Source of the DNA: Candidatus Nomurabacteria bacterium
Lineage (GTDB): Bacteria > Patescibacteriota > Minisyncoccia > Phycocordibacterales > UBA918
Assembly (NCBI GenBank): GCA_020632095.1
Contig: JACKGF010000001.1
Span: 444,937-508,936 of the forward strand
Length of the DNA: 64,000 nucleotides
Direction of reading: 5' to 3'
Of the stretch, positions 45,036 to 61,335 are shown one piece after another. Position 1 is the first letter of the stretch. Every line of letters begins with the position of its first letter. The notes beneath the pieces were generated by a model. It had not been told where the DNA came from. It worked only from the letters and a program-made list of their open reading frames with translations, and did not search any database. A program made the translations under genes and the position numbers.

Positions 45036-46019
45036 CTACACCAGTTTCCGGGCTGCAGCTTCAATTCCAGCGGCGTCTAGACCAAAGAAAGAAATCAATT
45101 CCTCCGGCTCACCCGATTGACCAAAGACATCTTTGATACCGACTCTAATCATTTTGGTTGGAACTGTTTCAGACAAATGTTCAGCTACTGCCCCTCCCAA
45201 ACCACCAATCACTTGATGTTCCTCGACTGTTACTAGAGCACCGTGCTCAGCTGCAAAAGCTTCCAAAGCCTCACCGTCAAGAGGCTTGATAGTTGGCATA
45301 TGAAGCACCGAAGCGCCAATACCGCTTTGCTGAAGGGTTTCTGCAGCCATAAGAGCATTATAGAGCAGAGAGCCAGTTACTACGATTCCTACCTTTTTCT
45401 CGTGCTTTTCATCACGCGAATACATCCGCAAAGCTTTCCCGATTTCAAATGGAGTTTCTGGTGTAGTAACTACCGGAGTCGCACTTCGACCAAGTCTAAA
45501 ATAAATTGGTCCTTCATACTTAGCCGCCGCTAAGGTGACCTTACGCGCTTCATGAACGTCAGCCGGAGCAATCACAATCATGTTCGGCACCGCCCTCATA
45601 ATAGCAATATCCTCGATCATTTGGTGAGTTGCCCCATCTGGCCCCACCGACACACCAGCGTGTGCGCCCACAATTTTCACATTGCTATTATTATAAGCAA
45701 TTGTAGTGCGAATCTGTTCCCAGTTCCGACCTGGTGAAAAAATGGCGTAAGAAGCAATAAACGGAATCTTTCCCATCGCCGCCATACCCGAACCAACCGA
45801 CGCCATATTTTGTTCTGCAATGCCGATCTGAACAAATCGTTCTGGAAATTCTTCAGCAAAAGAATTGGTCTTGGTGGATTCTGTTAGATCACAACTTAAC
45901 GCTACCACTCGACTGTCGCGCTTCCCTGCTTCAAGCAGACCTTCACCATAGCCATTTCTAGTTGGCACCTTTTCAACTGAGTCACCAGTTAGATTTTGTT
46001 GTATATAGTCAGCAAACAT
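45036..46019 (-). CDS. transketolase, C-terminal subunit (split transketolase)
   Basis: pyrimidine-binding and C-terminal domains; immediately follows the N-terminal subunit gene. Confidence 0.85.
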   Translation of the reverse strand: MFADYIQQNLTGDSVEKVPTRNGYGEGLLEAGKRDSRVVALSCDLTESTKTNSFAEEFPERFVQIGIAEQNMASVGSGMAAMGKIPFIASYAIFSPGRNWEQIRTTIAYNNSNVKIVGAHAGVSVGPDGATHQMIEDIAIMRAVPNMIVIAPADVHEARKVTLAAAKYEGPIYFRLGRSATPVVTTPETPFEIGKALRMYSRDEKHEKKVGIVVTGSLLYNALMAAETLQQSGIGASVLHMPTIKPLDGEALEAFAAEHGALVTVEEHQVIGGLGGAVAEHLSETVPTKMIRVGIKDVFGQSGEPEELISFFGLDAAGIEAAARKLV

Positions 46020-46020
46020 A

Positions 46021-46917
46021 TTATGAGATATCTTGAGCTTCGATGGTTCCGGCTAAAGTGCGGAGCTTCTGTAGAGCAACGGCTGCTTGTTCTTCGTGAG
46101 TTACTCTATCTTCAGGTCCTTTACCTGGAGGATTGCCATGCCATCTAAAATCTCGCTCAAACACATCAACTCCTTTAGAAGCAATCGTGTGCGCAATAAT
46201 TAGTGATGGTTGACTATAGACCGCCTGTGCTTTTCCAATAGCGTCATTTAAGGCGCGTATACTATGACCATCAACTTCCTGTACATCGAAGTTAAAGGCT
46301 TCAAATTTTTCCGCTAACGGTTCAAGCGGCATTACATTTTTTGTATAACCATCAATCTGAATTCCGTTCCTATCGACAATGACAATTAGATTATTTAATT
46401 TTTCTTTTCCAGCTAATAGTGCCGCTTCCCAAATCTGTCCTTCATTGAGCTCACCGTCACCCGTCAGACAATAAAAGAATTTTGACGAGTAAGGATTATC
46501 AATTCTTTCTGCTAAAGCCATCCCTATCGCTTGAGAAAGACCTGAACCCAGTGGACCAGAACTGGTCTCAATCCCTGGCAAAGCTCCCTTGTGCGGGTGA
46601 CCCTGTAGTCGTGAGCCCAGCTTGCGTAAAGTCATCATTTCCTCCATAGGAAAATATCCAGCGTGGGCTAAAGTAGCATACAAAACTGGACAGATATGAC
46701 CATTAGACAAAATCACTCGATCACGCTCTTCCCAGTCAGGATTCTTAGGGTCGTGTTTTAGAATTCCAAAGTATAGCAAAGTGAACACGTCAGCCATTCC
46801 CAGTGGTCCAGCCGTATGTCCACTACCAGCTTCAGTTAGCATCTCAATGATACTTTGACGAATATCATTAGCCTTGTGTTCTAGGGTTTTTATTTCTTCA
46901 GAAGTAAGATATTGCAT
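46021..46917 (-). CDS. transketolase, N-terminal subunit (ThDP-binding)
   Basis: GHxxxxLG and GDGELNEGQIWEA ThDP motifs. Confidence 0.85.
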   Translation of the reverse strand: MQYLTSEEIKTLEHKANDIRQSIIEMLTEAGSGHTAGPLGMADVFTLLYFGILKHDPKNPDWEERDRVILSNGHICPVLYATLAHAGYFPMEEMMTLRKLGSRLQGHPHKGALPGIETSSGPLGSGLSQAIGMALAERIDNPYSSKFFYCLTGDGELNEGQIWEAALLAGKEKLNNLIVIVDRNGIQIDGYTKNVMPLEPLAEKFEAFNFDVQEVDGHSIRALNDAIGKAQAVYSQPSLIIAHTIASKGVDVFERDFRWHGNPPGKGPEDRVTHEEQAAVALQKLRTLAGTIEAQDIS

Positions 46918-46963
46918 AAATGTACTGATAGTATAACAACGAAATTTGCTAGATGAAACTTTA

Positions 46964-47617
46964 CTAGTTAATAAGTCCTAAAAGTGCTTTATGGGCCACT
47001 TCTGGGTTAGGTTGAAGCACTATAGCTGATCCACAGATAAAACGATCTGCACCGGCATTATAGAGTCTTTCGATAGTGTTTTTATTGACACTACCGTCAA
47101 TCGTAATCGACATCTTTGGAAAAACTCTTTTCAACTCTGCGATCTTAACAAAGACCCCTTCATCCAGTGGCAATCCTTGAGCGCCAATTTCGTAGATACC
47201 CATCAATTGAATATAATCCGCATATTCCGCATATGAGATTAAAGTTTGAAGCGGAGTATCACCATGAGCACTCACTCCAACCGAAACCTTGGTGGTATTA
47301 GCAAAATTCTTAAACGTGTCTAGTGATAATGTCTCCACATGAAAGACCAACATGTCTGCTCCTGCTTCAATCCACTTAGTCGCCGCCTTGATTGGTTCTG
47401 CTACCATCAAGTCAACCTCCAAAGTATAAACATCTAAATATGGTTTTACAGCCAAAGGTTCCCCCACCGGTGCGTAGGGCCAGGAAATAGTTTGTACAAA
47501 ATTACCATCAACGATATCTAAATGGAACTCACCCGAAAAGGCCAATACTTTAGAGAAGTTTTCAACCTCAGCTTGGGACTTTGGTATAACAGCGGGTACG
47601 ATAGGAGAATAGATCAT
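46964..47617 (-). CDS. rpe: ribulose-phosphate 3-epimerase
   Basis: HLDIVDGNFV and TIM-barrel pattern. Confidence 0.85.
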   Translation of the reverse strand: MIYSPIVPAVIPKSQAEVENFSKVLAFSGEFHLDIVDGNFVQTISWPYAPVGEPLAVKPYLDVYTLEVDLMVAEPIKAATKWIEAGADMLVFHVETLSLDTFKNFANTTKVSVGVSAHGDTPLQTLISYAEYADYIQLMGIYEIGAQGLPLDEGVFVKIAELKRVFPKMSITIDGSVNKNTIERLYNAGADRFICGSAIVLQPNPEVAHKALLGLIN

Positions 47618-48078
47618 GTGTGAATTTTTTTGGTTATGACAGAGATTTTTTTATTTCTTCGTTGGTATTTTTCTTCAGTAAAAAAGTCTGTATGCAACCA
47701 CTTCCAAACCATTTTCTTGCAGGTATCAATATCAACAAATCTAGCCCCTATCGATAAAACATTAGCGTCATTATGTTGTCTCGACAAACTAATAATTTCT
47801 TCGTCGCCTCCATAATAAACTGTCGCCCGCACATTAGGAAACCGGTTGGCTACCATCGCCTCCCCTTGCCCCGAACCACCAAACACAATCGCTTTGGCTC
47901 CAGCTGGGTTCTTACTCACTTCAGCCGCTGCTAGTGAAATAAAATACGGATAATCGTCCAACGGATCATCCTCGTATGCACCATGATCTACAATTGTATA
48001 GCCTTCAGATTTTAACCAAGTCGAAACCGCCTCCTTGTGAACGAAACCGGCGTGGTCTGTAGCTAGATGAATAACCAT
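47614..48078 (-). CDS. rpiB: ribose-5-phosphate isomerase B
   Basis: RpiB/LacAB fold (GGSGQGEAMVANRFPNVRA). Confidence 0.85.
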   Translation of the reverse strand: MVIHLATDHAGFVHKEAVSTWLKSEGYTIVDHGAYEDDPLDDYPYFISLAAAEVSKNPAGAKAIVFGGSGQGEAMVANRFPNVRATVYYGGDEEIISLSRQHNDANVLSIGARFVDIDTCKKMVWKWLHTDFFTEEKYQRRNKKISVITKKIHT

Positions 48079-48088
48079 AAGTTTTCGA

Positions 48089-49117
48089 TTAAGATTTAAT
48101 GTGAGAAGCTACGGCGGCCACATGCTCTACCAAAGTCTGAGTGTAACTAGTTTCATTATCGTACCAAGCCAGCACCTTGACTAAGTTTCCGCCGACCACT
48201 TTTGTAAAAGACAAATCAGCAATTGAACCAACTCTTGAACCGATAATATCCGAAGAGACAATCTGCTCATCAGTCGCCGCAAAAATATTAGTCCACCTTG
48301 GGTCAGTCGCTGCCTTAAGTAAAACTTCATTCACTTCTTCGACTGTAGTATCGCGTGAAGCAATAAAAGTCACGTCTACGATAGAACCAACTGGTACAGG
48401 TACCCGCATAGCCAAACCATCAAACTTCCCTTTCAACTCAGGATGAGCTTCAGTCGTAGCAATAGCAGCCCCAGTAGTAGAAGGAATAATATTAAGCGCG
48501 GCTGCCCTACCTTTCCTCATGTCTTTTCCAGATGGACCATCAACTAACGATTGGGTGGCGGTGTAAGCATGGACAGTATTGAGAATCGCCTTTTCGATTC
48601 CAATCGCTTCTTTCAAAATTGCAATCAAAGGACTGGTTGCATTCGTAGTACAAGAAGCATTTGAAGAAATATCACAAGTTGCTAACTCACCTTGATTAAC
48701 CCCCATCAAAACCGTCGCTCCTCTGACCCCAGCTTCCTCAGCATCATTTTTAGCTGGAGCCGAAATCACTACTCGCCTAGCCCCCGCGGTCAGGTGTTTT
48801 TTAGATCCAGAATAAGCGGTGAAGAATCCGGTCGACTCGACTACAATATCAATATTCAAATCGCGCCACGGTAATTTTTCAGGGTCACGCTCTTGCACGA
48901 AAGCAATCTCACGTCCATCTACCACCAACTTGCCGTCACTTACCTTTACTGAAAAAGGGCTACGGCCATAGACAGAATCGTACTCAAGTAGGTACGCCAA
49001 ATTTTCCAGACTGCCCAAATCATTTATCGCCACTACTTGGAAATTCGGATTCCCGAAAGCCAGTCGAATGAAAGTCCGCCCGATTCTACCAAATCCATTT
49101 ATTGCTACTCGTACCAT
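48089..49117 (-). CDS. gap: glyceraldehyde-3-phosphate dehydrogenase
   Basis: INGFGRIGR NAD-binding motif; active site SNASCTTN. Confidence 0.9.
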   Translation of the reverse strand: MVRVAINGFGRIGRTFIRLAFGNPNFQVVAINDLGSLENLAYLLEYDSVYGRSPFSVKVSDGKLVVDGREIAFVQERDPEKLPWRDLNIDIVVESTGFFTAYSGSKKHLTAGARRVVISAPAKNDAEEAGVRGATVLMGVNQGELATCDISSNASCTTNATSPLIAILKEAIGIEKAILNTVHAYTATQSLVDGPSGKDMRKGRAAALNIIPSTTGAAIATTEAHPELKGKFDGLAMRVPVPVGSIVDVTFIASRDTTVEEVNEVLLKAATDPRWTNIFAATDEQIVSSDIIGSRVGSIADLSFTKVVGGNLVKVLAWYDNETSYTQTLVEHVAAVASHIKS

Positions 49118-49175: not shown

Positions 49176-50795
49176 TCATTCTTTATCCTCACCTTGACGC
49201 CGATAAATTACGTAAATAATAATTAAAATTATCAATAACAAAAAAAATACCACCGAAAACAATACTATTTTTGATGGCCGAAACAACATATCTGGAAACA
49301 CCACCTCACCACTCTCAACCATCGGACCAACAAATGAAATTGGTCCTTGATACTTAGCCACCACCAAGGCTTCGTAGTCATAAATTTCAATAATTAATCT
49401 TGATTTACCAACCACCCCAAGTGATGAGACCATCGCTTCATAAGCAGACTGGTCTTTGTTGATACGCAATAAAAATGAATACTGTTGACGATTGTCAGTT
49501 GGGTCTAACAATGTAACTATGATTGATTTTAAGTTACCAGCGATAGTTTTCTGGGGAATTGATATCTTGAAGGTTCGATCACTTGTGAGGACAATGTCTG
49601 TATCAATCAGTGAATAATTCTGCTCTCCTTGCTCGATGAATATCTGACCAAGTTCGGGCATTTTCATATCAGGTGTCACTCTTTCGACAACCACACTTGA
49701 GGTCGCTTCCTCGGTAATAATTGGTTTACCAATTGGATTATTTACCCCAGAAGGATAACCTCCAATTTCTCCAGTAACACTACTTGAATCAGCAAAAACA
49801 ATGGTCACTGCTCCCGAAGAGACATTACCATAGTTATCGACCACAAAAGCCGTGTAATAAACGGGAGAATACTGACTTAGGATATTTTCATCAAGCACCG
49901 AGGAACCGGTTCCTTGATATACTATCGCACCATCTTGAGGATGAGCTGGAAATCCAATATAACTACGGAGAATTCGAACGTATGAAATATTGTCTCCTTC
50001 CGGTATCTTCCAACTTAATTTAACATTTTCGCCTGTTGCCTCCGCTAAAAACCTAGACACATTAACTGGCGGTAAAACTAAAGCTTTGCTTAAGGTGGTA
50101 AATTGACCATTTTTAACAACCGTCTGGTGACCAGACGGAGTATAGCCAATTATCTGATACTCATAAGTTGTCCCAGGCTCCAAATCTGTCAATAAAACAT
50201 TATGTGACTTTGTATAGGCTTCACGAACAACATAACCTAATTCATACGAAGTACTCTTTCCCCATCTTAATTCAAGCCTGGCCGGAAAAGATGAATTTGC
50301 TTTTATACTTGTAGTAGATACCCCCGGAATGATTTGAAAATCATTTAATACTACTCGAGCTACGGTACTCTCAACTGGATTACTTTCAGGTTCCACTGGC
50401 ACAACTACCACCGGGTTATCTGGTGTTGTAGTCGATAACGAATTAGACGAGGTTGAATAATTAAGAGCAACATCAAAAGCTCTCACAGAATAGGAATAGG
50501 TAGTTGAAGCAGTTAACCCGGTATCGGAATAACTGGTCAAAGTTGTTGTTGCGATTGGTGTACCATCACGAGATACTGAGTACCCAGAAACTGCATAATT
50601 ATCGGTAGACGAAGACCAACTTAAATCAATCTGAATTGGAGCAATTGGGACAGCCGAAAGTAGAGTTGGTGTCGATGGTGGAATAAAATCATCAATTATA
50701 AAAGTCCTGACACTGAAAGAACCCGTATCAACCTGAGCTAGAGCAAGCTGTAGCGGTAAAAAAAATATTAAAAATAAAGCTATTTTTTTCATCAC
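49176..50795 (-). CDS. cell-surface protein with fibronectin type III domains and C-terminal TM anchor
   Basis: signal peptide; FN3-like repeats (LSWSSSTDNYAVSGYSV...YSYSVRAFD); C-terminal hydrophobic anchor and RRQGEDKE tail. Confidence 0.55.
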   Translation of the reverse strand: MMKKIALFLIFFLPLQLALAQVDTGSFSVRTFIIDDFIPPSTPTLLSAVPIAPIQIDLSWSSSTDNYAVSGYSVSRDGTPIATTTLTSYSDTGLTASTTYSYSVRAFDVALNYSTSSNSLSTTTPDNPVVVVPVEPESNPVESTVARVVLNDFQIIPGVSTTSIKANSSFPARLELRWGKSTSYELGYVVREAYTKSHNVLLTDLEPGTTYEYQIIGYTPSGHQTVVKNGQFTTLSKALVLPPVNVSRFLAEATGENVKLSWKIPEGDNISYVRILRSYIGFPAHPQDGAIVYQGTGSSVLDENILSQYSPVYYTAFVVDNYGNVSSGAVTIVFADSSSVTGEIGGYPSGVNNPIGKPIITEEATSSVVVERVTPDMKMPELGQIFIEQGEQNYSLIDTDIVLTSDRTFKISIPQKTIAGNLKSIIVTLLDPTDNRQQYSFLLRINKDQSAYEAMVSSLGVVGKSRLIIEIYDYEALVVAKYQGPISFVGPMVESGEVVFPDMLFRPSKIVLFSVVFFLLLIILIIIYVIYRRQGEDKE

Positions 50796-51556
50796 AAAGG
50801 TAAAGCAGTTATAGTGGTGGTAGCTGTATAAACACCAGCAATTACACCAGCTCCACTACCGATCCCGACCCTGAAACGCACCGTAGTAGTAGCTCCAGCT
50901 GGATGATTTGAACCAATACCTTCTGCTATCGACACTGATGTGGTCGACAAACCATCCCAACAAGTCAGCGTATTGTTATATGAACCTGAGTTACAAGTAC
51001 CAGCATTATCATCCAGAAACTCTTGCACCACATCAACTCCCTCCGGCGTAAAACCAAACGAAGCAGTTCCACCACTGATAAGGAAAGATGGATCTGGATC
51101 AACTCCAGCATTATAGTCAGCAATTGTGTAAGGGCCATTTTGCATCGCTGGATCATTTTGAGCCTCGATCGTTAGACGATACCCAGACGGACTATCTGTA
51201 ATAACAGTAAAGGTAGTTGACCCATTGGAAGTACCCCCAGTTAGACCAGGCAAATCTGGTGACATAACTACATCTCCAGTCGTAGTTAAGCTAACATACA
51301 CTTCTTGCATCTGTTGATATCCCGCTCGCAAAGAGTAAGAAGTACTATCAGACGGACCAGTGGCTATTTCACCGACTGTACTCTCCTGCACATAAGAAGT
51401 TGAAGACGAAAAACCGCCACCGATATTTATACTATCACTTTGTAACTGATAATTAGTACTAGTACGAACCTGCGCTTGAGTAACATTTAATAACAGTAAC
51501 AACACTGTCAGAACTGCGGTAGATACTAAGGAACTGATGATTTGCTTATAGACCAT
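50792..51556 (-). CDS. secreted protein, paralog B of the cassette
   Basis: signal peptide; shares PSFGF, TCW and YTATTT blocks with 52651..53358. Confidence 0.55.
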   Translation of the reverse strand: MVYKQIISSLVSTAVLTVLLLLLNVTQAQVRTSTNYQLQSDSINIGGGFSSSTSYVQESTVGEIATGPSDSTSYSLRAGYQQMQEVYVSLTTTGDVVMSPDLPGLTGGTSNGSTTFTVITDSPSGYRLTIEAQNDPAMQNGPYTIADYNAGVDPDPSFLISGGTASFGFTPEGVDVVQEFLDDNAGTCNSGSYNNTLTCWDGLSTTSVSIAEGIGSNHPAGATTTVRFRVGIGSGAGVIAGVYTATTTITALPL

Positions 51557-51559
51557 ACT

Positions 51560-52633
51560 TTAACCTTTACGCTTAAATTCAAACGTACGGAAAAAGGCTC
51601 TAATACCGAAAATTATAACAAACAAAACAAAGAACATTCCACCGACAATTTTCCAGGGCATCACCCAAAAAGAAACTGATACCTTATCAACAATATCGTC
51701 ATAACCACGGTTAACTTTGGCGGTTGCAGTATACCTACCAAGCAAGAATTCTCTGTCCCAAGTAATCTCTCGCAACCGGAGAGATTTCGGCAAAACAAAC
51801 CATGGTTCAAGTTCAATAAACCCGACTTCTTCACCAAACATATTTTTTATCGACAGTTCACCATATGGGTTCACATGAACAGAACCAGTATTTTCGTATA
51901 AGATACCAAAATCAATTGGACCTTTCTCATACCACCATTTGTTTCTAGTTAGTGAGATATCCGATGTTTTTCCCTCAATTACAACGTCACCTCGCACCCG
52001 TAAAAAGAACAGCGAGCCAACCCTAGCTATAATCGGTGAGCGAGGAGCCGCAGAAACTTCAGAATCAGCCTTACGCACTGTAGAAACTAAAACACTACCA
52101 TAATACCCTCCGGGCGAGGTGTTGGGTGGAACAGTTATTGTAATTGGAATACGAGCTCTTTCACCCAAATCAAGAGTGAAGTTGTCTTCCGGAAAACTAA
52201 TAAAGTCCCTAATGCTGTATGGCCCTACTTTATCACCCGTCAAACTAACAGCACTACTACCATCATCACTACCAGTAATGTCTTCAATCTCAAGCAAAAA
52301 AGATCTGTCAGCACTAATACGGTTTGTAACTGTTATTTCTCGAGTTACAGTCTCTCCTGGACTTACTTCTATCTCCGTTCTACCAGGACCAACCACGAAA
52401 TCACCAACGTCTATGTTTCCTGAGATTCTCTCTGAACGGTACCACAACTCATCATCTTGAGTTAAATCAATCGGTACCACTAACTCGGTAGTTGAAGCGG
52501 TAGACGAAGAAGTTGCTTTAACATTAGTAATATCGTTTTTTTGCTGCGCAAACACCTCTCCAGTGAGAGGTGTAGCAAGAAGCAAAATTGAACAAGCAAC
52601 ACTAATTCTTTTAACAAAAGTAGTCATATCCAT
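51560..52633 (-). CDS. surface protein with signal peptide and C-terminal TM anchor
   Basis: 357 aa; N-terminal signal; C-terminal WKIVGGMFFVLFVIIFGI TM and basic tail. Confidence 0.5.
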   Translation of the reverse strand: MDMTTFVKRISVACSILLLATPLTGEVFAQQKNDITNVKATSSSTASTTELVVPIDLTQDDELWYRSERISGNIDVGDFVVGPGRTEIEVSPGETVTREITVTNRISADRSFLLEIEDITGSDDGSSAVSLTGDKVGPYSIRDFISFPEDNFTLDLGERARIPITITVPPNTSPGGYYGSVLVSTVRKADSEVSAAPRSPIIARVGSLFFLRVRGDVVIEGKTSDISLTRNKWWYEKGPIDFGILYENTGSVHVNPYGELSIKNMFGEEVGFIELEPWFVLPKSLRLREITWDREFLLGRYTATAKVNRGYDDIVDKVSVSFWVMPWKIVGGMFFVLFVIIFGIRAFFRTFEFKRKG

Positions 52634-52650
52634 AATGACTACAGATTACC

Positions 52651-53358
52651 TTATTGGGCAAAGAGTGACAAGGTTGCGGTAGCTGTATAGGTCTGAGCAG
52701 TCGGAACTGGAAGAGCTCCACTTGGCACATTAACTTTAAATTGAATGGTCGAGGTAGCTCCAGTCACAGCAGAAGTCGTCCGATCAACAATTCTGAAAGC
52801 GGTTGTGGCCGGAGACTTCCAACAAGTCTCTGCAGTTTCACTGGTGTCGTTATTACAAACAGCACCGTTGTTATGGAAGGAAGGATCGGTATCACCAATA
52901 GTAGCTGAAGTAACTGTGTAAGCAAACTGAGCCGCTGTACTAGCAGTAAAACCAAATGATGGCTCACCTCCAACATCACTACTGTAGTCGCGAAGAGCTT
53001 CACTAGCATCATTGTCACCAATCATCGCCTCTGGTGTACCATTGTTCTCAAAAGCTATTTCTACATAATATCCAGTAGAATTGTTTGACTGAACAACAAA
53101 ATCTGTTGTTCCTGTAGCATTACCTCCTGTCACACCACTTATACTACCAGCCATAGTCACATTACTTGGGTACACCAAGAAAGAAGTTTCATCGGTGATA
53201 GTTTGGCGAATCCTGAAATCTGGCGCCACCTCATCTCCATAACTAATCATTGGCTCCGCCAGAAAAAAGGAGGCGCATAGTAAAGTAACTATGGTGCCAG
53301 TAGCCGTGAGAGCGTAGAGTGCTGACCGCTTGTAGTGTGTTTGTGTTCTATTTATCAT
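52651..53358 (-). CDS. secreted protein, paralog A of the cassette
   Basis: signal peptide; conserved blocks shared with 50792..51556. Confidence 0.55.
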   Translation of the reverse strand: MINRTQTHYKRSALYALTATGTIVTLLCASFFLAEPMISYGDEVAPDFRIRQTITDETSFLVYPSNVTMAGSISGVTGGNATGTTDFVVQSNNSTGYYVEIAFENNGTPEAMIGDNDASEALRDYSSDVGGEPSFGFTASTAAQFAYTVTSATIGDTDPSFHNNGAVCNNDTSETAETCWKSPATTAFRIVDRTTSAVTGATSTIQFKVNVPSGALPVPTAQTYTATATLSLFAQ

Positions 53359-53466
53359 GATAATGCTAAGTAACTTATAATCTGCTTAAACTTATAACCT
53401 TATTATATCAGCATAATTTTGTAGGGATGTCTGATTTATACAGAGATATGTGTATATCTACTATAG

Positions 53467-54498
53467 TTACGGTAGATAGCTTGTGTTTTTAGCTACCTGA
53501 TTGTCAATATCGTAATTAATAATATCCTTGGCATCGTTAGGGTCCATATTTATAGCCTTTGCCACCAACTCTGCAAAAGCGTCTCGTGCGTACAAATTAG
53601 TATTATTATTGAAGTAGTCATCTACAGCATTACCTTTTAGAGCAGTTATGTAAGGATGGAGCCAGACGTAATATGCTTCCCAGTCATTCCCAAATTGTTG
53701 AGCTACAATATCAACTTCCAATTGGCTTCCACTACTATAAACATCTTCCTTACCACTTAAATTATTGATTACGACTGCCCATCCCCAAATCGGGGTATTC
53801 ATACCAGTAGTTCCATTTCTTTTTGCAAACAAGTGTATTTCATCAATTACGTCAGGAATAACTGTGACAGTTTGAGTGATCATCGCAAATGCAGAAATTG
53901 ACACACCAAAGTCAGTCGCCAATAAATTCAGAACTTCAGTAGTGGTGGTACTGTTGTAACTTTTACTAAAAGAACCATTAGTATTTGTAAATAAAGTAAC
54001 TAATGATTTAGAATTTGGCAGGTCAATTTCAATAGCAATTTTAGTCACACTTGGTAGAGAAACATTTGAAAAATTGGTTACAACCTGCGTTCCAACAGGA
54101 GCTGATGGTGAAGTTAGTAACTGAGTATAATTGCTAGCTATCCACCCCTGCGGACCACCAGCAAATCTAACTTTGTACCACAGTATCCCTCCTGAGACCT
54201 GAGGATCATCTATAATAATAGCCACTTTATCCTTAGGAACAACTTGTCTAACTGGATTAAAAATGCCTGGTCCAGTCCTAACATTTAAATTATCAGTTAG
54301 CTTTACCCAACTAGCAATCAACGGTGATCTGGGGCTTTGTTGTGCTGGTTGCACAGAACCTAGCATCATGTTTGCTACAGAAGAGTAAGCGTCTCCATTG
54401 TCAGCCTTAGCGACACCCGGATTTAAACAAATTAAAAGTGCCAACATGGTTAAAACTGAACCTGTTGCAAGATAGTTATTTTTAATTAAAGCCTTCAT
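53467..54498 (-). CDS. secreted SH3b-domain protein
   Basis: signal peptide; bacterial SH3-like NVRTGPG...YKV segment. Confidence 0.5.
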   Translation of the reverse strand: MKALIKNNYLATGSVLTMLALLICLNPGVAKADNGDAYSSVANMMLGSVQPAQQSPRSPLIASWVKLTDNLNVRTGPGIFNPVRQVVPKDKVAIIIDDPQVSGGILWYKVRFAGGPQGWIASNYTQLLTSPSAPVGTQVVTNFSNVSLPSVTKIAIEIDLPNSKSLVTLFTNTNGSFSKSYNSTTTTEVLNLLATDFGVSISAFAMITQTVTVIPDVIDEIHLFAKRNGTTGMNTPIWGWAVVINNLSGKEDVYSSGSQLEVDIVAQQFGNDWEAYYVWLHPYITALKGNAVDDYFNNNTNLYARDAFAELVAKAINMDPNDAKDIINYDIDNQVAKNTSYLP

Positions 54499-54642: not shown

Positions 54643-57600
54643 CTAAATCCCCCCGCCCCCGCCAGCACCACCGCCACCGGCTTGGTGGAATATGCGGACC
54701 TCCAGAGCGTCGAGATTGAGGGTATTGCCACCGGGTTGAGCGGTCACCCTTAGTCTGAAGAGTGCATTGGAGAAGTTGGCTGGAGTCCAACTGCGACCCC
54801 ATTTGTCTGACGCTCCCCCCACGGTGTAGACCACGTCGGTACCAATGAGGGCTGGGGTGGCTTTAGCGGTGGTGTATGAGCTACCACCATCCCAAGAGAG
54901 TGAGACATCGACGGTGCCACTGGCAGTAGTACCGGAAATGTCTAGTTTAACGGCAATTCCTTCGATGGTATTAGAACCAGGGATATTGAAGCCAAAGGTA
55001 TCGTAGCTTTGTTTGAGGTTGATGGTTGCCGCAGTAGCGTAGACACCATCGGAGAGAAAGGCGTTGGATGGATTGGTCCACTCATTGTCTATATCACCAG
55101 TGGCGGTTGGTCGGAAGAAGTTAACGTCAGCGGCGATGTTTTCGCCGTCGACTGGTTGTCCGACTTCCCCACCTCCATCATCGCCACCCCCAAAGACATC
55201 ACCATCACCATCCGGTGGAGCGCCGCCAATGCGGTCAGACTTGCTACCAGCGCCGTGTTGGTTACGGATATGTTGAATATAGTCTACGGTGTTAGTCATG
55301 GCGGTCGAAACATCTGCTGTGATACCAATAGATGGGAGACTAATGACAACCGCGGCGTTACCGTTGATGGAGACAGTGTCTCCGATTAGGAGGTAGTCGG
55401 CACTGGAGGTAGCACTGAAGTCGCTACTGAAAGTGATAGCGCCGTGTTGACCGTTGATGGTTAAGATACCGGACGCATCTATCTGTGTGTCACCACCGTC
55501 TAGGAGACGGTCACTGTTGTTGTCTTTGTATAGTCTGAGATTAATAAGGTCACTAGTGTCTAGCTTCTGGACTCCAGAGAGAGTGAAGACTAGGTCGGTG
55601 ATAGTGATAGTTGATTCGGCTTCGAGGTTGAAGGCGAAGAGAGCGGTGTCGGTTTTGTTTTGGAAACTGAATTCATTGTCGACTTGGCCAAGGGTATGGT
55701 TGGTGGTGGTCGCGTTGACTAAAATTTCGATGAAGTTCCAACAAGTGTTGTTGCCGGCGTCGTAACCAAAAGGATTGTATAGGTCAGCTGGACAACCGTT
55801 ATTATCTTTGACATTTACGTAGTTGACGGTTTGTTGCGTACCTGGTACGTAAAAGTTGGCTTGCGTACCAGGAGTGGAAGAACGGAGCCAGACGTATGAT
55901 CCGCTGGTGCCTTCGAGAGAAATATCTTGGAAGGTGGAGGTGGCACTTGCGGGGAGTTGGAGAGAGGTAGAGGCGAGCATGGTGAGGGTACCGGTGGTAG
56001 TGACTGGGTCGGTGAGGATGACAGATTGAGAACTACTGCCCATACCACTCTGGTTGGTGATGGTTAGACTGGCGAAGGATGAGGTGGCGGTCATGGAGCC
56101 GGTGAGGGTTTGAGGGGTGGTGCCGGAGAGGGTGAGGAGAGATTCGAGGTCATGACGCGGTTGGTGCCTGTTTGCGCCACCGCCACTAAGAGACCGTTGC
56201 CATAGGTGACAGAGGTCCAAGAATTTGCCTCAGAAGCTGCTCGGGCAGTCCAGGTGATACCGTCGGGAGAGGTCATGACGCGGTTGGTGCCAGAGTCAGA
56301 AACTACCACAAAAGGCCGTTGCCGTAAGTAACCGATAGCCATTGGTTTGATTCAGCCGCAGTACGCGCTGTCCAGGTGGTGCCGTCGGGGGAGGTCATGA
56401 CGCGGTTGGTGCCCCAAGCTACCGCCACGAAGAGACCATTGCCGTAAGTGACAGATGTCCAAAAATTTGCTTCTGCTGCAGAACGCGGTGTCCAAGTGAT
56501 ACCATCTGGGGAGGTCATGACGCGGTTGGTGCCATTACCTGACACTGCCACAAAGAGGCCGTTGCCGTAGGTGACAGAGTACCAAGAGTTTGCCTCAGCG
56601 GCGGAGTGTGATGTCCAGGTGATACCATCTGGGGAGGTCATCACTTGGTTGGTGCCGTTACTAGACACAGCCACGAAGAGACCGTTGCCGTAGGTGACAG
56701 ATCCCCAAAAATTTGCTTCCGCTGCGGAGCGGGCGGTCCAATCAATACCGTCAGGAGATGTCATTACCTTTCCGCTTCCCGACACCGCCACAAAGAGACT
56801 GTTACCGTAGGTGACGGAATACCAATCACTTGTTTCAGCCGCTGTACGGGCAGTCCAGGTGATACCGTCGGGAGAGGTCATGACGCGATTGGTGCCGTCT
56901 GAAGATACCGCCACAAAGAGACCGTTGCCGTAGGTTACAGAACGCCAAAGGTTTGCTTCAGCGGCCGATCGCGCACTCCAACTCCTCCCAGCCCCGTTAT
57001 CGAAGGTGCCGTCGGTGTTGGTGTAGTCGCCAGTGACCGAGAGATGTTGAGGGCCACTACTATTGATGAAGTACCAATCGAGAAATCTGAAGTACTGGCG
57101 TTGTTTGAAAAGTCTTAGTCCCTACTCCAGTGAAAGAGACGTTCCTTAGAGCAGAAGTGCCAGTCATGGTGCCAGTGGCGGTTTGGTCGTTGTCGCCATT
57201 TAAGGTGACGAGTGAGTGGGAGGTCATGACGCGGTTAGTGCCGTCTTGTGATATCGCCACAAGTAACCGTTGCCGTAGGTGACAGAGTACCACGTGTTTG
57301 CTTCAGTGGCAGAGCGAGCGGTCCAGGTGATGCCGTCGGGTGAGGTCATGACGCGGTTGGTGCCGGTATTTGAAACTGCCACAAATAAGCCATTGCCGTA
57401 GGTGACGGAGCGCCACTGATTGGCCCCTGCAGCCGAACGAAGAGTCCAAGTGATGCCGTCAGGGGAGGTCATAACTTGGTAGGCGCCAGAATATGACACT
57501 GAAACAAAGAGACCATTACCGTAGGTGACAGATAACCAAGTAACAGCACTAACAGAGTGAGAGGTCCAGGTGATGCCGTCGGGGAGGTCATAACCGTATT

Positions 57601-60600
57601 AAATCCAACAGCCACAAATAAGCCGTTGCCGTAGGTGACGGAATACCAAGAAATCGCAGCAGCAGCCGTACGAGCGGTCCAATTAATACCGTCGGGGGAG
57701 GTCATGACTTGATTAGTACCGTCCCAGGACACCGCAACAAAGAGGCCGTTGCCGTAGGTGACGGAATACCATTGATTTGCTTGTGCGGCAGAGCGAGCGG
57801 TCCAGGTGATGCCGTCGGGGGAGGTCATGACGCGGTTGGTGCCATTTGTAGATACGGCCACAAAGAGGCCGTTGCCGTAGGTGACGGAATTCCAAGAGTT
57901 GGCCGCGGTGGCCGCGCGAGCGGTCCAGGTGATGCCGTCGGGGGAGGTCATGACGCGGTTGGTGCCTGAGTTTGAGATAGCCACAAAAAGGCCGTTGCCG
58001 TAAGCGACGGAACGCCATGAATTTGCCTCCGCCGCTGACTGCGAAGTCCAGTGACTACCTGCCCCATTATTAAAGGTTCCTTCGTTGGTGTAGTTGCCAG
58101 AAATCGCTAGTTGCTCTGGCGCGACGACAGTCGCGCCAGCATTGATGGACACATCATTCGCCAACACCTTCGTCGCCGAAAATGTCTTCGTCCCCGCCCC
58201 GGTGAAGACCGCGTTACCGAGGTGGGTGGTGCTAGAGGCGGTATCACTAATACTCTGCGCACTAGCGCCGTTGAAGGTAGTGGTGCCGGTCTGTGAGGTC
58301 ATGACGCGGTTGGTGCCACTATCTGCAACCGCCACAAAGAGGCCGTTGCCGGATGTGACGGATCGCCATTGGTTTGCTTCAGCCGCCGCGCGAGCGGTCC
58401 AAGTGATGCCGTCAGGAGAAGTCATGACACGATTACCATCTGTTGTAGCATTACACCACGTCGTATTATAACCACACGCCACTGCAACAAAGAGCCCATT
58501 GCCGTAGGTGACGGAGTACCAACTATTTGCCTCAGCGGCAGAGCGAGCGGTCCAATTGATACCGTCAGGAGAAGTCATGGTGCGGTTGGTGCCGTTTTGT
58601 GCTACTGCTACAAAGAGGCCGTTGCCGTAGGTGACGGAATTCCAGCTGTTAGCTTCAGCGGCCGCTCGGGCGGTCCAGATGGTTCCGTCGGGGGAGGTCA
58701 TAACTTGATTAGTACCGCCCCAAGACACAGCCACAAACAGACCGTTGCCGTAAGTGACTGAGGACCATGAATTGGCTTCAGCCGGTGTACGGTCAGTCCA
58801 AGTAATGCCGTCGGGGGAGGTCATTACATCTCCAGTACTAGCCCCATAAGAATCATTATATGGCGCCACAGCCACAAACAGGCCGTTGCCGTAGGTGACG
58901 GAGCTCCATTTTCTTACAACAGCGGCCGAGCGGGCCGTCCAGGTGGTGCCGTCGAGGGAGGTCATGACGCGGTTGGTGCCAGATTCTGCCACCGCCACAA
59001 ACAGGCCGTTGCCGTAGGTGACTGAGGTCCAAGAGTTTGCCTCAGCCGCCGAGCGAGCGGTCCAGGTGATGCCGTCGGGGGAGGTCATGACGCGGTTGGT
59101 GCCAGATTCTGCCACCGCCACAAAGAGACCGTTGCCGTAGGTGACGGAATTCCAAGTGTTTGCCTCAGCAGCGGAGCGAGCGGTCCAAATACCTGCATAT
59201 GCATCATAAGTACTATTATTAGTAAACTGTCCACTCACACTAAGCTCTTCAGCTACAACAACCCCATCATCATTCACTAGATTGGTAGTGGAGGCAGTGG
59301 TATTGATTGTTTTATTATTGGTACCAGTAAAAGAAAGTGTGTTGAAGGCTGATGTGCTTGTGGCTACACCATTAATTATGACTGAATTGTCACCAAGAGC
59401 GGTAACTAGGCTACTGGAAGAAGCAGTCATAACACGGTTGGTGCCGTCAGATGATACAGCTACAAAAGTACCGTTGCCGTAGGTGACTGAAAGCCATGTG
59501 TTTGCTTCAGTAGCAGAACGAGTGGTCCAGGTGATGCCGTCGGGAGAGGTCATAAGTGTTCCACAAGGATCAATATAAGATGAATCTAGATTACATACAG
59601 CAACGAAAAGGCCGTTGCCGTAGGTGACTGATTGCCACTGATTTGCCTCTGCAGCAGAGCGAGCAGTCCAGGTGATGCCGTCGGGGGAGGTCATAAGATT
59701 ATCACAAAGACTGTAAATCAAATCATATGCACACACCGCCACAAACAGGCCGTTGCCGTAGGTGACGGAGTACCAAGCATTTGGTGAGGTAGCAGCCCGG
59801 GCGGTCCAAGTGCTACCGTCGGGGAGGTCATAACTTGGTAGGCGCCAGAATATGACACTGAAACAAAGAGACCATTACCGTAGGTGACAGATAACCAAGT
59901 AACAGCACTAACAGAGTGAGAGGTCCAGGTGATGCCGTCGAGGGAGGTCATGACGCGATTGGTGCCGTCAGCAGATACAGCCACAAAGAGGCCGTTGCCG
60001 TAGGTGATGGAGGTCCATTGGTTTGCCTCGGTGGCAGCACGGGCAGTCCAGGTGACACCATCGGGGGAGGTCATGACGCGGTTGGTGCCGTCAGCAGATA
60101 CAGCCACAAACAGACCGTTGCCGTAGGTGACGGATTTCCATGAGTTAGCTTCAGCCGCTGCACGAGCCGTCCAAGTGATGCCGTCAGGGGAGGTCATGAC
60201 GCGGTTGGTGCCGGTGTTTGAAACCGCCACGAAAAGGCCGTTGCCGTAGGTGACGGAGAACCAGGAGTTTGCCTCCGCCGCACTCCTCGCCGTCCAAACC
60301 GTCCCCTCATTCCCAAAAGTCGTCGTCCCACTATTATGAGTAAAGGTACCATTGTTAGTATAGTCACCCGTAATCGTAATGTTATCGGCCGGAGCGACTA
60401 AGGTAGCGCCAGCGTCGATAGTGATGTCTGTAGTGGTGGCATTGGTAGCAAAGGTGTAAGTACCAGTTCCCCCGAACTTGAGGTTACCAATTGGTTGGGT
60501 AGCAGTGATAGTCTTCCCTGTCGTACTAGCATTAAAGTAGATAGTGCCGTGGTTACCGACTAGAGCCGTCGAAGAAGCTGATAGATTACCAGCGAGTGTA

Positions 60601-61328: not shown

Positions 61329-61335
61329 AATTTAC

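What the first reader, a model, noticed from the sequence alone, without database searches (positions are those of the whole stretch)
49176..54498. Five-gene co-oriented secreted/anchored protein cassette with two diverged paralogs
Five consecutive minus-strand genes all carry signal peptides: an SH3b protein, paralog A (235 aa), a 357-aa protein with a C-terminal TM anchor, paralog B (254 aa), and an FN3-repeat protein with a C-terminal TM anchor. Paralogs A and B share ordered blocks (G..GG...G.T.F.V; PSFGFT; C...-TCW; ATxTxxFxV; a YTATxT ending) despite low overall identity. The topology is two secreted subunits, one anchored mid-size protein and one large anchored FN3 protein. That resembles surface-complex or fimbria-like loci, for example WxL/DUF916-type clusters in Firmicutes, but I cannot assign it to any known family. 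It is a candidate novel surface appendage or adhesion module adjacent to the giant repeat adhesin-like genes.
Basis: partly seen in the sequence, partly recalled or inferred. Interest (0 to 1): 0.55.

Follow-up and report, generated by a model that had tools for sequence, protein, structure and literature searches.

The report
Compact CPR pilus-like assembly operon
This is a four-gene operon, conserved across a large group of ultra-small (CPR) bacteria, that most likely builds a thin surface fibre from two small pilin-like proteins, using a membrane-anchored chaperone and a membrane-anchored base protein; it is a stripped-down relative of the "Pam" pilus first described in 2026.

Summary
The five minus-strand genes, their signal peptides, the two C-terminal anchors and the paralogy of the 235-aa and 254-aa proteins are all real. 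The conserved unit has four genes, not five. The order 235-aa, 357-aa, 254-aa, FN3 protein recurs on one strand in about 80 species-level Patescibacteria genomes, always ahead of GAPDH. The SH3b gene is a lineage-specific insert.

The 254-aa protein is a distant homologue of PamT (NCBIfam E 9e-14, far below the equivalog cutoff). Its model is a chaperone-usher-pilin-like β-sandwich, preceded by a nearly invariant 60-residue N-terminal extension that AlphaFold leaves disordered. The 357-aa protein has two Ig-like domains and a TM helix. Its best matches are the enterococcal WxLIP (DUF916) and pilus chaperones (CsuC, CfaA, FimC). The FN3 protein with a TM anchor matches the PamR role.

Independent chaperone–pilin gene fusions, and adhesin-domain–pilin fusions, support a functional link between the parts.

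Best reading: an usher-less, chaperone-assisted, donor-strand surface fibre. It is a compact Paceibacteria variant of the 2026 Pam pilus, and it also links that system to Firmicute WxL loci. Polymerisation is inferred, not shown.

The parts
52651..53358 (-). g2, 235-aa secreted pilin-like protein ('paralog A'). It has a signal peptide and a short conserved N-terminal strand (consensus F-T-[IV]-R-Q-T-I-T-D-E-I-S-F, residues 48-60), followed by an Ig-like domain (about residues 61-235) with a conserved Cys168/Cys179 pair.
   Evidence: ORF; hydrophobic N-terminus; 457 homologues, all from CPR and none with a Pfam domain; hhalign to the g4 family at 100% probability, E 1e-42; N-terminal consensus; first gene of the conserved block. 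No structure was predicted for g2 itself, so its fold is inferred from the paralogy.
51560..52633 (-). g3, 357-aa membrane-anchored chaperone candidate (WxLIP / PapD-like). It has a signal peptide, a variable Ser/Thr-rich linker, two β-sandwich domains (residues 66-185 and 203-325) and a C-terminal TM helix (residues 327-355, window 51569-51655), with a nearly invariant cytoplasmic tail RAFFRTFEFKRKG.
   Evidence: AF2 model. Foldseek against PDB gives WxLIP 9i1y/9i25_C at E 2e-12, then CsuC, CfaA, EcpB, Caf1M and FimC. Sequence matches to EfmWxLIP1 at E 3e-4 (single sequence) and 7e-5 (profile). 34 of 42 orthologues match Pfam WxLIP_PGBD. It is fused to the g4 module in 15 of 150 representative clusters.
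50792..51556 (-). g4, 254-aa secreted pilin-like protein ('paralog B', PamT-like; MCB9814233.1). It has a signal peptide (cleavage after the invariant Ala28), an N-terminal extension (residues 29-87) and an Ig-like pilin domain (residues 88-254).
51296..51472 (-). The g4 N-terminal extension (residues 29-87), a triple S-x-N-Y-x-L repeat ending in L-R-A-G-Y-Q-Q-M. It is the candidate donor or linker strand region.
   Evidence: It is the most conserved stretch of the protein (mean column conservation 0.74-0.80; many columns at 95-100%), yet has pLDDT below 50 in the monomer model. In 24 of 150 representative clusters another domain sits N-terminal to it, which gives an NTD-linker-CTD layout. In 6 a domain is inserted after it. 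The donor-strand role is inferred.
49176..50795 (-). g5, 539-aa FN3-repeat protein with a C-terminal TM anchor (residues 503-535, window 49191-49289). It is the candidate base or terminator protein, analogous to PamR. A conserved N-terminal strand (D-F-x-[IV]-R, residues 26-30) precedes the first FN3 domain (residues 38-133, window 50397-50684).
   Evidence: Pfam fn3 at E 1.6e-9 and Pur_ac_phosph_N at E 3.7e-7; PDB FN3 matches; TM segment; N-terminal consensus with F27 at 90%, [IV]29 at 95% and D36 at 100%; last gene of the conserved block, overlapping g4 by 4 bp. The likeness to PamR/RbmA was not tested structurally.
53402..53410 (-). Extended -10 element TGATATAAT, 44 nt upstream of the g2 start codon. 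It is a candidate promoter for the four-gene operon.
   Evidence: Read directly from the sequence. The generic promoter scan was not above chance for the region, so this is only a consensus match.
53467..54498 (-). g1, 343-aa secreted SH3b-domain protein. It is co-oriented with the cassette but is a lineage-specific insertion, not part of the conserved cassette.
   Evidence: Pfam SH3_3 at E 2.4e-8. It is present only in loci of the same species (L004, L005) and as the C-terminal part of a 778-aa protein in L006. It is absent between the large upstream gene and g2 in the other loci.
54643..56220 (-). C-terminal module of the giant repeat protein upstream (g0). It is a possible cargo or adhesin partner. 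Its conserved domain ends ...LDALEVRIFHQAGGGGAGGGGGI-COOH.
   Evidence: A homologous C-terminal module (g0 residues about 164-517) with the same poly-Gly end closes giant proteins lying directly upstream of g2 in about 30 of about 70 related loci. Neither Pfam nor NCBIfam matches it. A functional link to the cassette is inferred from adjacency only.

Best explanation
The core is a four-gene operon (g2-g3-g4-g5) for an usher-less, chaperone-assisted surface fibre of a monoderm CPR bacterium (Ca. Nomurabacteria, Paceibacteria/Parcubacteria group). It is a compact relative of the Pam pilus.

Proposed mechanism (all steps inferred):
1. All four proteins are exported by Sec.
2. g3 stays in the membrane through its C-terminal helix. 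Like WxLIP and the PapD/FimC chaperones, it lends a β-strand to the incomplete Ig-like domain of the newly exported pilin-like proteins g4 and g2.
3. The conserved N-terminal extension of an incoming g4 replaces the chaperone strand in the previous subunit (donor-strand exchange), so g4 polymerises head to tail.
4. g2 has only a short N-terminal strand. It acts as a minor, adaptor or tip subunit, possibly coupling to the large adhesin encoded upstream.
5. g5, anchored by its own TM helix, inserts its conserved N-terminal strand into the last pilin. This stops growth and ties the fibre to the membrane, the role proposed for PamR.

Shown here: the genes, their topology signals, the paralogy, the folds, the homologies and the conservation of the block. 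Inferred: strand donation, polymerisation, subunit order and the role of each N-terminal strand.
For: - Homology to a Pam component: g4 and all 42 tested orthologues match NCBIfam CPR_pilus_PamT, with the best E 1e-14.
- Chaperone: g3 has two Ig-like domains plus a TM helix. Its best matches are WxLIP (E 2e-12) and the pilus chaperones CsuC, CfaA, EcpB, Caf1M, DraB and FimC. It also has reproducible DUF916 sequence similarity. In the published AlphaFold2 complex prediction, a WxLIP strand completes the WxL β-sandwich (PMC10599100), and PDB entry 9i25 holds WxLIP bound to a long WxL. PamC/PamD are described as FimC/PapD-like with a C-terminal TM helix.
- Donor-strand candidate: g4 residues 29-87 are the most conserved part of the family but are disordered in the monomer model. 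In relatives this segment sits as a linker between an extra N-terminal domain (DUF2341 / Laminin_G_3 lectin-like; one protein is 2187 aa) and the Ig domain. That matches the NTD-linker-CTD layout of PamA/PamB.
- Rosetta-stone fusions: 15 of the 150 best representative clusters encode chaperone-TM-signal peptide-pilin in one protein.
- Anchor: g5 has FN3 domains, a C-terminal TM helix and a conserved N-terminal strand, like PamR.
- Operon: gaps of 17, 3 and -4 bp. The order and strand are conserved in about 80 species-level genomes.
Against: - Strand exchange is therefore untested.
- The PamT match covers only g4 residues 10-134, which includes the signal peptide, and scores 51.5 bits against a 240-bit cutoff. 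g2, g3 and g5 match no Pam model.
- The locus has no two-domain PamA/PamB-type shaft pilin. Troman et al. describe PamT as a tip subunit without a linker strand, so a PamT-like protein need not polymerise.
- g3 also matches RbmA (E 2e-9), so assigning g3 as chaperone and g5 as anchor is not forced.
- The very high conservation (g3 and g4 at 60-80% identity across many genera) is unusual for host-contact adhesins.
Confidence: 0.6

Rival explanations
1. A WxL-type, non-filamentous surface-display complex. The membrane-anchored g3, acting like WxLIP, holds the small β-sandwich proteins g2 and g4 at the cell surface by strand complementation, and through them perhaps the large adhesin encoded upstream. 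No head-to-tail polymer forms. g5 is a separate anchored spacer or adhesin.
For: - The best sequence and structural matches of g3 are WxLIP, not a classical pilus chaperone.
- The composition parallels a WxL cluster, which has one WxLIP plus a short and a long WxL protein (PMC10599100). Here there are two small paralogues and, elsewhere in the family, large proteins carrying the g4 module at their C-terminus.
- The only Pam match is to the non-polymerising tip protein PamT.
- No shaft pilin of the PamA/B type is present.
Against: - g2 and g4 have no WxL domain match. No WxL chain of 9i25 appears among the top 50 Foldseek hits, which are dominated by polymerising pilins.
- The 60-residue, nearly invariant, monomer-disordered N-terminal extension of g4 is hard to explain without a binding partner such as a neighbouring subunit.
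- DUF3324, the second WxLIP domain, is not detected by sequence.
Confidence: 0.25
2. A housekeeping envelope structure rather than an adhesive appendage, for example a cell-wall or S-layer-associated scaffold. The proteins would be conserved because they bind the cell's own envelope.
For: - Sequence conservation is unusually high across many genera.
- The position next to GAPDH and the pentose-phosphate genes is invariant, which suggests vertical inheritance as a core trait.
- The Pfam family of g3's first domain is named a peptidoglycan-binding domain.
- The cytoplasmic tail of g3 is conserved.
Against: - The peptidoglycan-binding label for DUF916 rests on docking prediction.
- The fold matches of g4 are fibre subunits, not S-layer or wall-binding modules.
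- Relatives fuse the g4 module to lectin-like domains and to giant repeat proteins, as expected for display of adhesins.
Confidence: 0.1
3. A classical chaperone-usher pilus or a TasA/camelysin-type fibre acquired horizontally.
For: Chaperone-usher pilins and chaperones, and TasA, TLP and CanX, appear among the structural matches.
Against: - There is no usher-sized β-barrel gene in or next to the block in any locus, and the chaperone is membrane-anchored.
- g2 and g4 match no Pfam model at E up to 0.1, which excludes PF12389 (Peptidase_M73/TasA), SCPU and Fimbrial.
- Every named homologue in the three homologue searches carries a CPR name; most hits are unnamed. In the genome scan, all but two record titles are CPR or unclassified, and the two others look like binning errors.
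Confidence: 0.03

Closest known systems
Pam pilus operon of Candidatus Mycosynbacter amalyticus (Saccharimonadia): PamA/B/E pilins, PamT tip, PamC/D anchored chaperones, PamR anchor (Troman et al., bioRxiv 10.64898/2026.03.03.709456)
   Same: - The host is a CPR bacterium and there is no usher.
- All components are Sec-secreted.
- The pilin-like protein has a truncated-Ig / chaperone-usher-pilin-like fold. PapE 1n12, the top Foldseek hit, is the same reference structure the preprint uses.
- The two-Ig-domain chaperone carries a C-terminal TM helix.
- An FN3 protein carries a C-terminal TM helix and an extra N-terminal strand.
- g4 is a detectable sequence homologue of PamT.
- A large fibre- or adhesin-like gene lies next to the operon.
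   Different: - It sits in a different CPR class (the Paceibacteria/Parcubacteria group). [quoted passage not shown]
- It has only four genes. There are two single-domain pilin-like paralogues and no two-domain PamA/B/E, and one chaperone instead of two.
- g4 scores 51.5 bits against the 240-bit PamT cutoff, and g2, g3 and g5 match no Pam model.
- The neighbourhood is GAPDH and the pentose-phosphate genes. No ATP-synthase genes were seen among the ORFs that were annotated (not all window ORFs were scanned).
- g4 carries a 60-residue triple-repeat N-terminal extension.
WxL gene clusters of Firmicutes (short WxL, long WxL and WxLIP = DUF916-DUF3324-TM; Hassan et al. 2023, PMC10599100; PDB 9i1y, 9i25)
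   Same: - g3 has the WxLIP architecture of signal peptide, two Ig-like domains and a C-terminal TM helix, at a similar size (357 aa against 337-365 aa).
- g3 is the best sequence and structural match of WxLIP.
- The cluster logic is the same: one anchored partner plus two small secreted β-sandwich paralogues, with family members that carry the small module at the C-terminus of large adhesins.
- The partner is predicted to complete the client's β-sandwich with a strand.
   Different: - g2 and g4 are not WxL-domain proteins. They have no PF13731 match and no Trp-x-Leu motifs.
- The DUF916 match of g3 is below the gathering threshold, and DUF3324 is not detected by sequence.
- An FN3 anchored protein is present, which WxL clusters lack.
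- The host is CPR, not Firmicutes.
- WxL complexes are not known to polymerise.
Archaic and alternate chaperone-usher pili (Csu, CupE, CFA/I) of Gram-negative bacteria
   Different: There is no outer membrane and no usher. The chaperone is tethered to the cytoplasmic membrane. There is no detectable sequence similarity. The base is an FN3 membrane protein.

Membership tests
Pam (CPR-type) pilus system | Sequence membership of a component in the curated model (NCBIfam NF058579 CPR_pilus_PamT, equivalog, cutoff 240 bits) | tested here: not met
   g4 scores 51.5 bits, E 8.9e-14, over residues 10-134 only. All 42 of 42 orthologues match but none comes near the cutoff. g2 does not match. This shows homology, not equivalog membership.
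Pam (CPR-type) pilus system | Pilin with a truncated Ig-like, chaperone-usher-pilin-like C-terminal domain | tested here: met
   The AF2 model of g4 matches CsuA/B, CupE, FimH/PapG pilin domains, FimG and CfaB, and PapE 1n12. g2 shares the domain. Whether a strand is really missing could not be inspected.
Pam (CPR-type) pilus system | PapD/FimC-like two-domain chaperone carrying a C-terminal transmembrane helix | tested here: met
   The g3 model has two β-sandwich domains plus a helix at residues 327-355. It hits CsuC, CfaA, EcpB, Caf1M, DraB and FimC. A direct comparison with PamC/PamD was not possible because their sequences could not be retrieved.
Pam (CPR-type) pilus system | RbmA-like FnIII protein with a C-terminal TM helix and an N-terminal β-strand (PamR) | tested here: inconclusive
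   g5 has Pfam fn3 domains, a C-terminal TM helix and a conserved N-terminal strand. Its structure was not predicted. It has no sequence match to RbmA or to any Pam model.
Pam (CPR-type) pilus system | Two-domain major pilins (NTD, linker strand, CTD) of the PamA/PamB type in the operon | tested here: not met
   The cassette holds only the 235-aa and 254-aa single-domain proteins. Two-domain relatives of g4 exist elsewhere in the family, but not in this locus.
Pam (CPR-type) pilus system | Filament assembled by donor-strand exchange | not testable with these tools
   This needs multimer modelling or cryo-EM. There is only indirect support: a conserved but monomer-disordered N-terminal extension, and the fusions.
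WxL cluster (Firmicutes) | WxLIP protein: DUF916 (PF06030) + DUF3324 + C-terminal TM helix | tested here: inconclusive
   PF06030 scores 22.3 bits against a gathering score of 27.3, E 1.4e-4. 34 of 42 orthologues match at E up to 0.01, the best at 3.9e-6. EfmWxLIP1 matches at E 7e-5 by profile and is the top Foldseek hit at E 2e-12. DUF3324 is not detected by sequence. The TM helix is present.
WxL cluster (Firmicutes) | At least two WxL-domain proteins (PF13731, dual Trp-x-Leu motif) in the cluster | tested here: not met
   g4, its orthologues and g2 have no WxL Pfam match at E up to 0.1. No WxL chain appears among the top 50 Foldseek PDB hits.
Classical chaperone-usher pilus | Outer-membrane usher gene in the operon | tested here: not met
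   The conserved block has four genes and none is usher-like. The flanks are a large adhesin-like gene and GAPDH.
TasA/camelysin (Peptidase_M73) fibres | Match to PF12389 and a linked SipW-type signal peptidase | tested here: not met
   There is no PF12389 match. No peptidase gene lies in the block. TasA appears only as a weak fold hit.

The most novel reading that the evidence does not exclude
The block is a class-wide, minimal (four-gene), usher-less donor-strand fibre system of Paceibacteria whose chaperone is a WxLIP homologue. If so, the CPR Pam pili and the WxL clusters of Firmicutes are two branches of one ancient monoderm assembly principle: a membrane-anchored strand-donating chaperone plus small incomplete-β-sandwich clients. 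The g4 N-terminal triple repeat would be a new kind of multi-strand donor. The giant upstream adhesins, with their conserved C-terminal ...VRVYHQAGGGGxGGGGI end, would be loaded onto the fibre as cargo.
Probability: 0.3. Interest if true: 0.75.

Novelty: new variant of a known kind. Interest (0 to 1): 0.55.

Why it matters
CPR/Patescibacteria are thought to depend on host cells, yet how most of them make contact is unknown. The only fibre of this type described so far, Pam (a 2026 preprint), was reported mainly in Saccharimonadia and Microgenomatia.

This locus would show that a simpler four-gene version is a conserved, vertically inherited trait of a large part of the Parcubacteria/Paceibacteria group. 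The pattern scan found relatives in 133 species-level genomes, and the g4 family has 1120 clusters at 50% identity.

It would also give a minimal system for testing usher-less donor-strand assembly: one chaperone, two pilins and one anchor. In addition, it provides a sequence and structure bridge (DUF916/WxLIP) between CPR pili and the poorly understood WxL virulence clusters of enterococci, lactobacilli and Listeria.

Tried and rejected
- **Sequence searches that found nothing useful.** Pfam and NCBIfam scans of g2 and of the upstream g0 module gave nothing. PDB sequence searches with g2, g4 and the g4 family profile gave nothing meaningful.
- **Families ruled out for g2/g4.** The WxL domain, TasA (PF12389), SCPU and Fimbrial families gave no matches.
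- **SH3b gene (g1).** It was rejected as a cassette member because it is absent from nearly all related loci.
- **Small ORFs upstream of g2.** I tested whether the small ORFs upstream of g2 in other genomes are a third pilin paralogue. They are not: HMM searches were negative, and about ten of them are HTH proteins.
- **Other copies.** No further copies of the four genes occur in the window.
- **Promoter and terminator scan.** The numbers were not above chance, and the only terminator-like hit inside the block lies at the g3 start, where it is probably fortuitous.
- **Direct comparison with Pam proteins.** I could not retrieve the M. amalyticus Pam sequences. Genome scans were capped, and distant hits were cut from the lists. 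The Pam filament structures are not in the PDB copy used.
- **Complex modelling.** The chaperone-pilin and pilin-pilin complexes could not be modelled because the structure-prediction cap (2 jobs) had been reached.
- **Literature.** A search for donor-strand systems in CPR found only the Troman preprint and a passing mention of TasA homologues in Patescibacteria.

Full report
**1. Observation**

The region holds five co-oriented minus-strand ORFs exactly as described:
- g1: 53467-54498, 343 aa
- g2: 52651-53358, 235 aa
- g3: 51560-52633, 357 aa
- g4: 50792-51556, 254 aa
- g5: 49176-50795, 539 aa

A hydropathy script shows an N-terminal hydrophobic segment in all five, each followed by an Ala-ending cleavage-type site. 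Only g3 (residues 320-353) and g5 (residues 503-535) have a C-terminal hydrophobic helix. Pfam confirms SH3_3 in g1 and fn3 in g5.

g2 and g4 are true paralogues. BLASTP gives E 7e-17. hhalign of the two family alignments gives 100% probability and E 1e-42. That similarity is confined to the C-terminal domain of about 170 residues (g2 61-234, g4 90-253), and the N-terminal parts differ. The gaps between g2, g3, g4 and g5 are 17, 3 and -4 bp. g1 is separated from its neighbours by 108 and 144 bp.

**2. Source and conservation**

g2, g3 and g4 are 100% identical to hypothetical proteins H6784_02340, _02335 and _02330 of a Candidatus Nomurabacteria bacterium genome with a 997-kb contig. Every homologue that carries a name has a CPR name and none has a Pfam domain; most hits are unnamed. 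At E up to 1e-3 there are 1582 hits for g4, 1181 for g3 and 457 for g2, with 60-80% identity among the top 120.

A pattern scan of one genome per GTDB species found 133 genomes that encode a g4 relative. In the 80 loci fetched, plus five from contig look-ups, a BLASTP synteny script found g2-g3-g4-g5 in the same order and on the same strand in essentially every locus. The exceptions are almost all cut by contig ends. The block is nearly always followed by GAPDH, RpiB, Rpe and a split transketolase.

g1 occurs only in the same species and, fused to something longer, in one other locus. So the conserved unit has four genes.

**3. What the proteins are**

*g4.* It matches NCBIfam NF058579, 'CPR-type pilus protein PamT', at E 8.9e-14. 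The match scores only 51.5 bits against a 240-bit cutoff and covers residues 10-134 only. All 42 orthologues tested match the same model, and g2 does not. The AlphaFold2 model is confident (pLDDT above 90) for residues 84-254, a β-sandwich, and is disordered (below 50) for residues 26-83.
- Foldseek puts PapE (1n12) first.

*g3.* The model shows two β-sandwich domains (residues 66-185 and 203-325) and a long C-terminal helix.
- Foldseek ranks the Enterococcus faecium WxLIP first (9i1y, and 9i25_C 'bound to long WxL', E about 2e-12). Next come RbmA and the pilus chaperones CsuC, CfaA, EcpB, Caf1M, DraB and FimC. The chaperones and WxLIP superpose better (target-normalised TM 0.45-0.55) than RbmA (0.37).
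- By sequence, g3 matches EfmWxLIP1 at E 3e-4 as a single sequence and at E 7e-5 as a family profile.
- It also matches Pfam WxLIP_PGBD/DUF916 just below threshold, and 34 of 42 orthologues hit that family.

*g5.* It has a clear FN3 domain (residues 38-133), at least one more FN3-like domain, and the TM anchor.

**4. Link to described systems**

Troman et al. (bioRxiv 10.64898/2026.03.03.709456) solved two filaments of Ca. Mycosynbacter amalyticus. They defined a pam operon with these parts:
- pilins PamA/B/E, built as an N-terminal domain, a linker strand and a truncated Ig-like C-terminal domain, and assembled by donor-strand exchange;
- a single-domain tip protein, PamT;
- two FimC/PapD-like chaperones, PamC/D, each with a C-terminal TM helix;
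- PamR, an RbmA-like FnIII protein with a C-terminal TM helix and an extra N-terminal strand, proposed to terminate and anchor the pilus.

There is no usher. The present block has the same cast in reduced form: g4 and g2 as pilin-like proteins, g3 as the anchored chaperone, and g5 as the anchored FN3 protein.

The preprint does not mention Paceibacteria/Parcubacteria, WxL or DUF916. Separately, Hassan et al. (PMC10599100) describe WxL clusters as one WxLIP (DUF916-DUF3324-TM) plus a short and a long WxL protein. AlphaFold2 predicts there that a WxLIP strand fills a gap in the WxL β-sandwich, which is chaperone-like strand complementation. So g3 ties the CPR system to WxLIP. However, g2 and g4 are not WxL-domain proteins.

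**5. Evidence on mechanism**

*The g4 extension.* Residues 29-87 form three S-x-N-Y-x-L repeats and end in L-R-A-G-Y-Q-Q-M. This is the most conserved stretch of the family, with many columns at 95-100%, yet it is unstructured in the monomer model. That is the pattern expected of a segment that folds only against a partner.

*Architectures of relatives.* An exhaustive profile search of 1.84 billion representatives found 1120 clusters at E up to 1e-3. Among the best 150:
- 104 are stand-alone proteins.
- 15 are single polypeptides reading g3-like ectodomain, TM helix, short basic loop, signal-peptide-like segment, g4 module. This is a topologically sensible Rosetta-stone fusion of chaperone and client.
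- 24 carry another domain directly N-terminal to the conserved extension. These include DUF2341 plus the Laminin_G_3 lectin-like domain, and a 2187-aa protein. The result is an NTD-linker-CTD layout like PamA/B, or like a tip adhesin.
- 6 have a domain inserted between the extension and the Ig domain.
- 1 carries g5-like FN3 repeats N-terminal to the g4 module.

*N-terminal strands of g2 and g5.* Each has a short conserved strand shortly after the signal peptide. g2 has F48-T-[IV]-R-Q-T-I-T-D-E-I-S-F. g5 has D-F27-x-[IV]-R. The pattern of an aromatic residue, any residue, an aliphatic residue and then Arg also appears in g4 as Y74-x-L-R.

*Working model.* From these points I infer the following.
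- g3 caps newly exported g4 and g2.
- The g4 extension displaces g3 from the preceding subunit and builds the fibre.
- g2 is a minor, adaptor or tip subunit.
- g5 terminates the fibre and anchors it.

None of these steps is shown.

**6. Operon features**

An extended -10 element (TGATATAAT, window 53410-53402, minus strand) lies 44 nt upstream of the g2 start, in the g1-g2 spacer. The generic promoter and terminator scan was not above chance. The g3 stop and the g4 start are 3 nt apart, with an AAAGG inside the last g3 codons, and g4 and g5 overlap by 4 bp. This is consistent with translational coupling.

**7. Surroundings**

Upstream lies a giant repeat gene with Asp-box-like 'SPDGITWT' repeats and Pfam EPTP/DUF6242 matches. 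Its GC content is 0.54-0.56 against about 0.41 elsewhere. In the window it is split into at least six stop-free stretches in three frames. A sister assembly reads through one of the breaks, so sequencing frameshifts are likely.

Its C-terminal module (g0) recurs at the end of giant proteins directly upstream of g2 in about 30 of about 70 loci. It always ends ...[IL]-[QE]-V-R-V-[YF]-H-Q-A-GGGGxGGGG-x-I-COOH. Other loci have different giant proteins there, such as Beta_helix and Peptidase_S74 proteins, or an HTH protein of about 260 aa. A large, variable adhesin next to a conserved assembly block fits a display system, but the link rests on adjacency alone.

**8. Classification and novelty**

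The block works like a Pam pilus and shares homologous parts with both Pam and WxL systems, but it fails strict membership of either.
- Against Pam: there is no PamT equivalog score, no PamA/B-type pilin, and no Pam model hits for g2, g3 or g5.
- Against WxL clusters: there are no WxL domains, and the DUF916 match is sub-threshold.
- Against classical chaperone-usher pili: there is no usher, so it is not one.

I therefore rate it a new variant of a known kind: a compact four-gene form that is widespread across the Parcubacteria/Paceibacteria group.

Main caveats:
- Polymerisation is unproven.
- The PamT match partly overlaps the signal peptide.
- The fold scores for g4 are modest.
- The chaperone and anchor assignments of g3 and g5 rest on fold ranking and on Pfam FN3 hits.
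- The high conservation and fixed position beside central-metabolism genes leave room for a housekeeping envelope role.

Noticed in passing
window 54646-63999 (minus strand): The giant Asp-box/EPTP-like repeat gene upstream of the cassette is broken into at least six stop-free stretches in three reading frames. Its GC content is 0.54-0.56 against about 0.41 for the rest of the window. A sister assembly (L004) reads through window 56660-54643 as one 672-aa ORF with four gap columns, so assembly frameshifts in the repeats are likely; a pseudogene is the alternative.
   Followed up: partly
window 54643-54720 (C-terminus of g0); L007, L008, L015, L019, L024, L025, L031, L038, L039, L042 and others: Giant proteins directly upstream of the cassette in about 30 related genomes share a C-terminal module. 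It always ends in a β-strand-like motif plus a poly-glycine tail, ...DA[IL][QE]VRV[YF]HQAGGGGxGGGG[AGE]I, followed by the stop codon. No Pfam or NCBIfam family matches it, and its function is unknown. It could be a sorting, attachment or strand-donation signal.
   Followed up: partly
P0369, P0376, P0382, P0384, P0390, P0391, P0393, P0396, P0409, P0435, P0437, P0477, P0499 (representative proteins): In 15 of the 150 best representative clusters, the chaperone (g3-like) and the pilin (g4-like) are one polypeptide: ectodomain, TM helix, short basic loop, second hydrophobic signal-like segment, pilin. Whether these are true fusions or read-through gene calls was not checked at the DNA level.
   Followed up: partly
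L010 6297-7079, L020 1121-1867, L023 6302-7033, L028, L033, L037, L057, L075, L080, L084: In about ten related genomes the gene directly upstream of g2 encodes a protein of about 250-290 aa. It has an N-terminal helix-turn-helix-like motif (YSRDYVTRLAREGKI..GRQWFVD.DSL) and a C-terminal ...FVVVPV end. It may be a regulator. No such ORF was found in this window.
   Followed up: no
window 45036-49117 (minus strand) and the same position in L001-L084: GAPDH, RpiB, ribulose-phosphate 3-epimerase and a split transketolase (N- and C-terminal halves as separate genes) follow the cassette in nearly all related genomes. Such fixed synteny between a surface-structure operon and central carbon metabolism is unusual.
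   Followed up: partly
window 51560-51600 (g3 residues 345-357): The short cytoplasmic tail of g3 (RAFFRTFEFKRKG) is nearly invariant across the family. Part of this may reflect the ribosome-binding site of g4, which lies inside these codons (AAAGG, 3 nt between stop and start). It could also mark an interaction on the cytoplasmic side.
   Followed up: no
L040 (JBLIMJ010000003.1, labelled Acidimicrobiales) and L078 (JBLHGD010000009.1, labelled Azotimanducaceae): Two contigs assigned to non-CPR MAGs carry the full CPR cassette followed by the CPR-type GAPDH. They are probably binning contamination. Many loci labelled 'uncultured Candidatus Saccharibacteria' also look like generic labels for Patescibacteria.
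   Followed up: no
window 23341-27063 (minus strand): A second large candidate surface protein (1240 aa, Pfam DUF11 repeat) lies about 22 kb from the cassette. The rest of the window that was sampled is housekeeping: DnaE, GyrB, PheT, ThrS/ProS-type synthetase, SMC, RNase R and two SLT-domain proteins.
   Followed up: no
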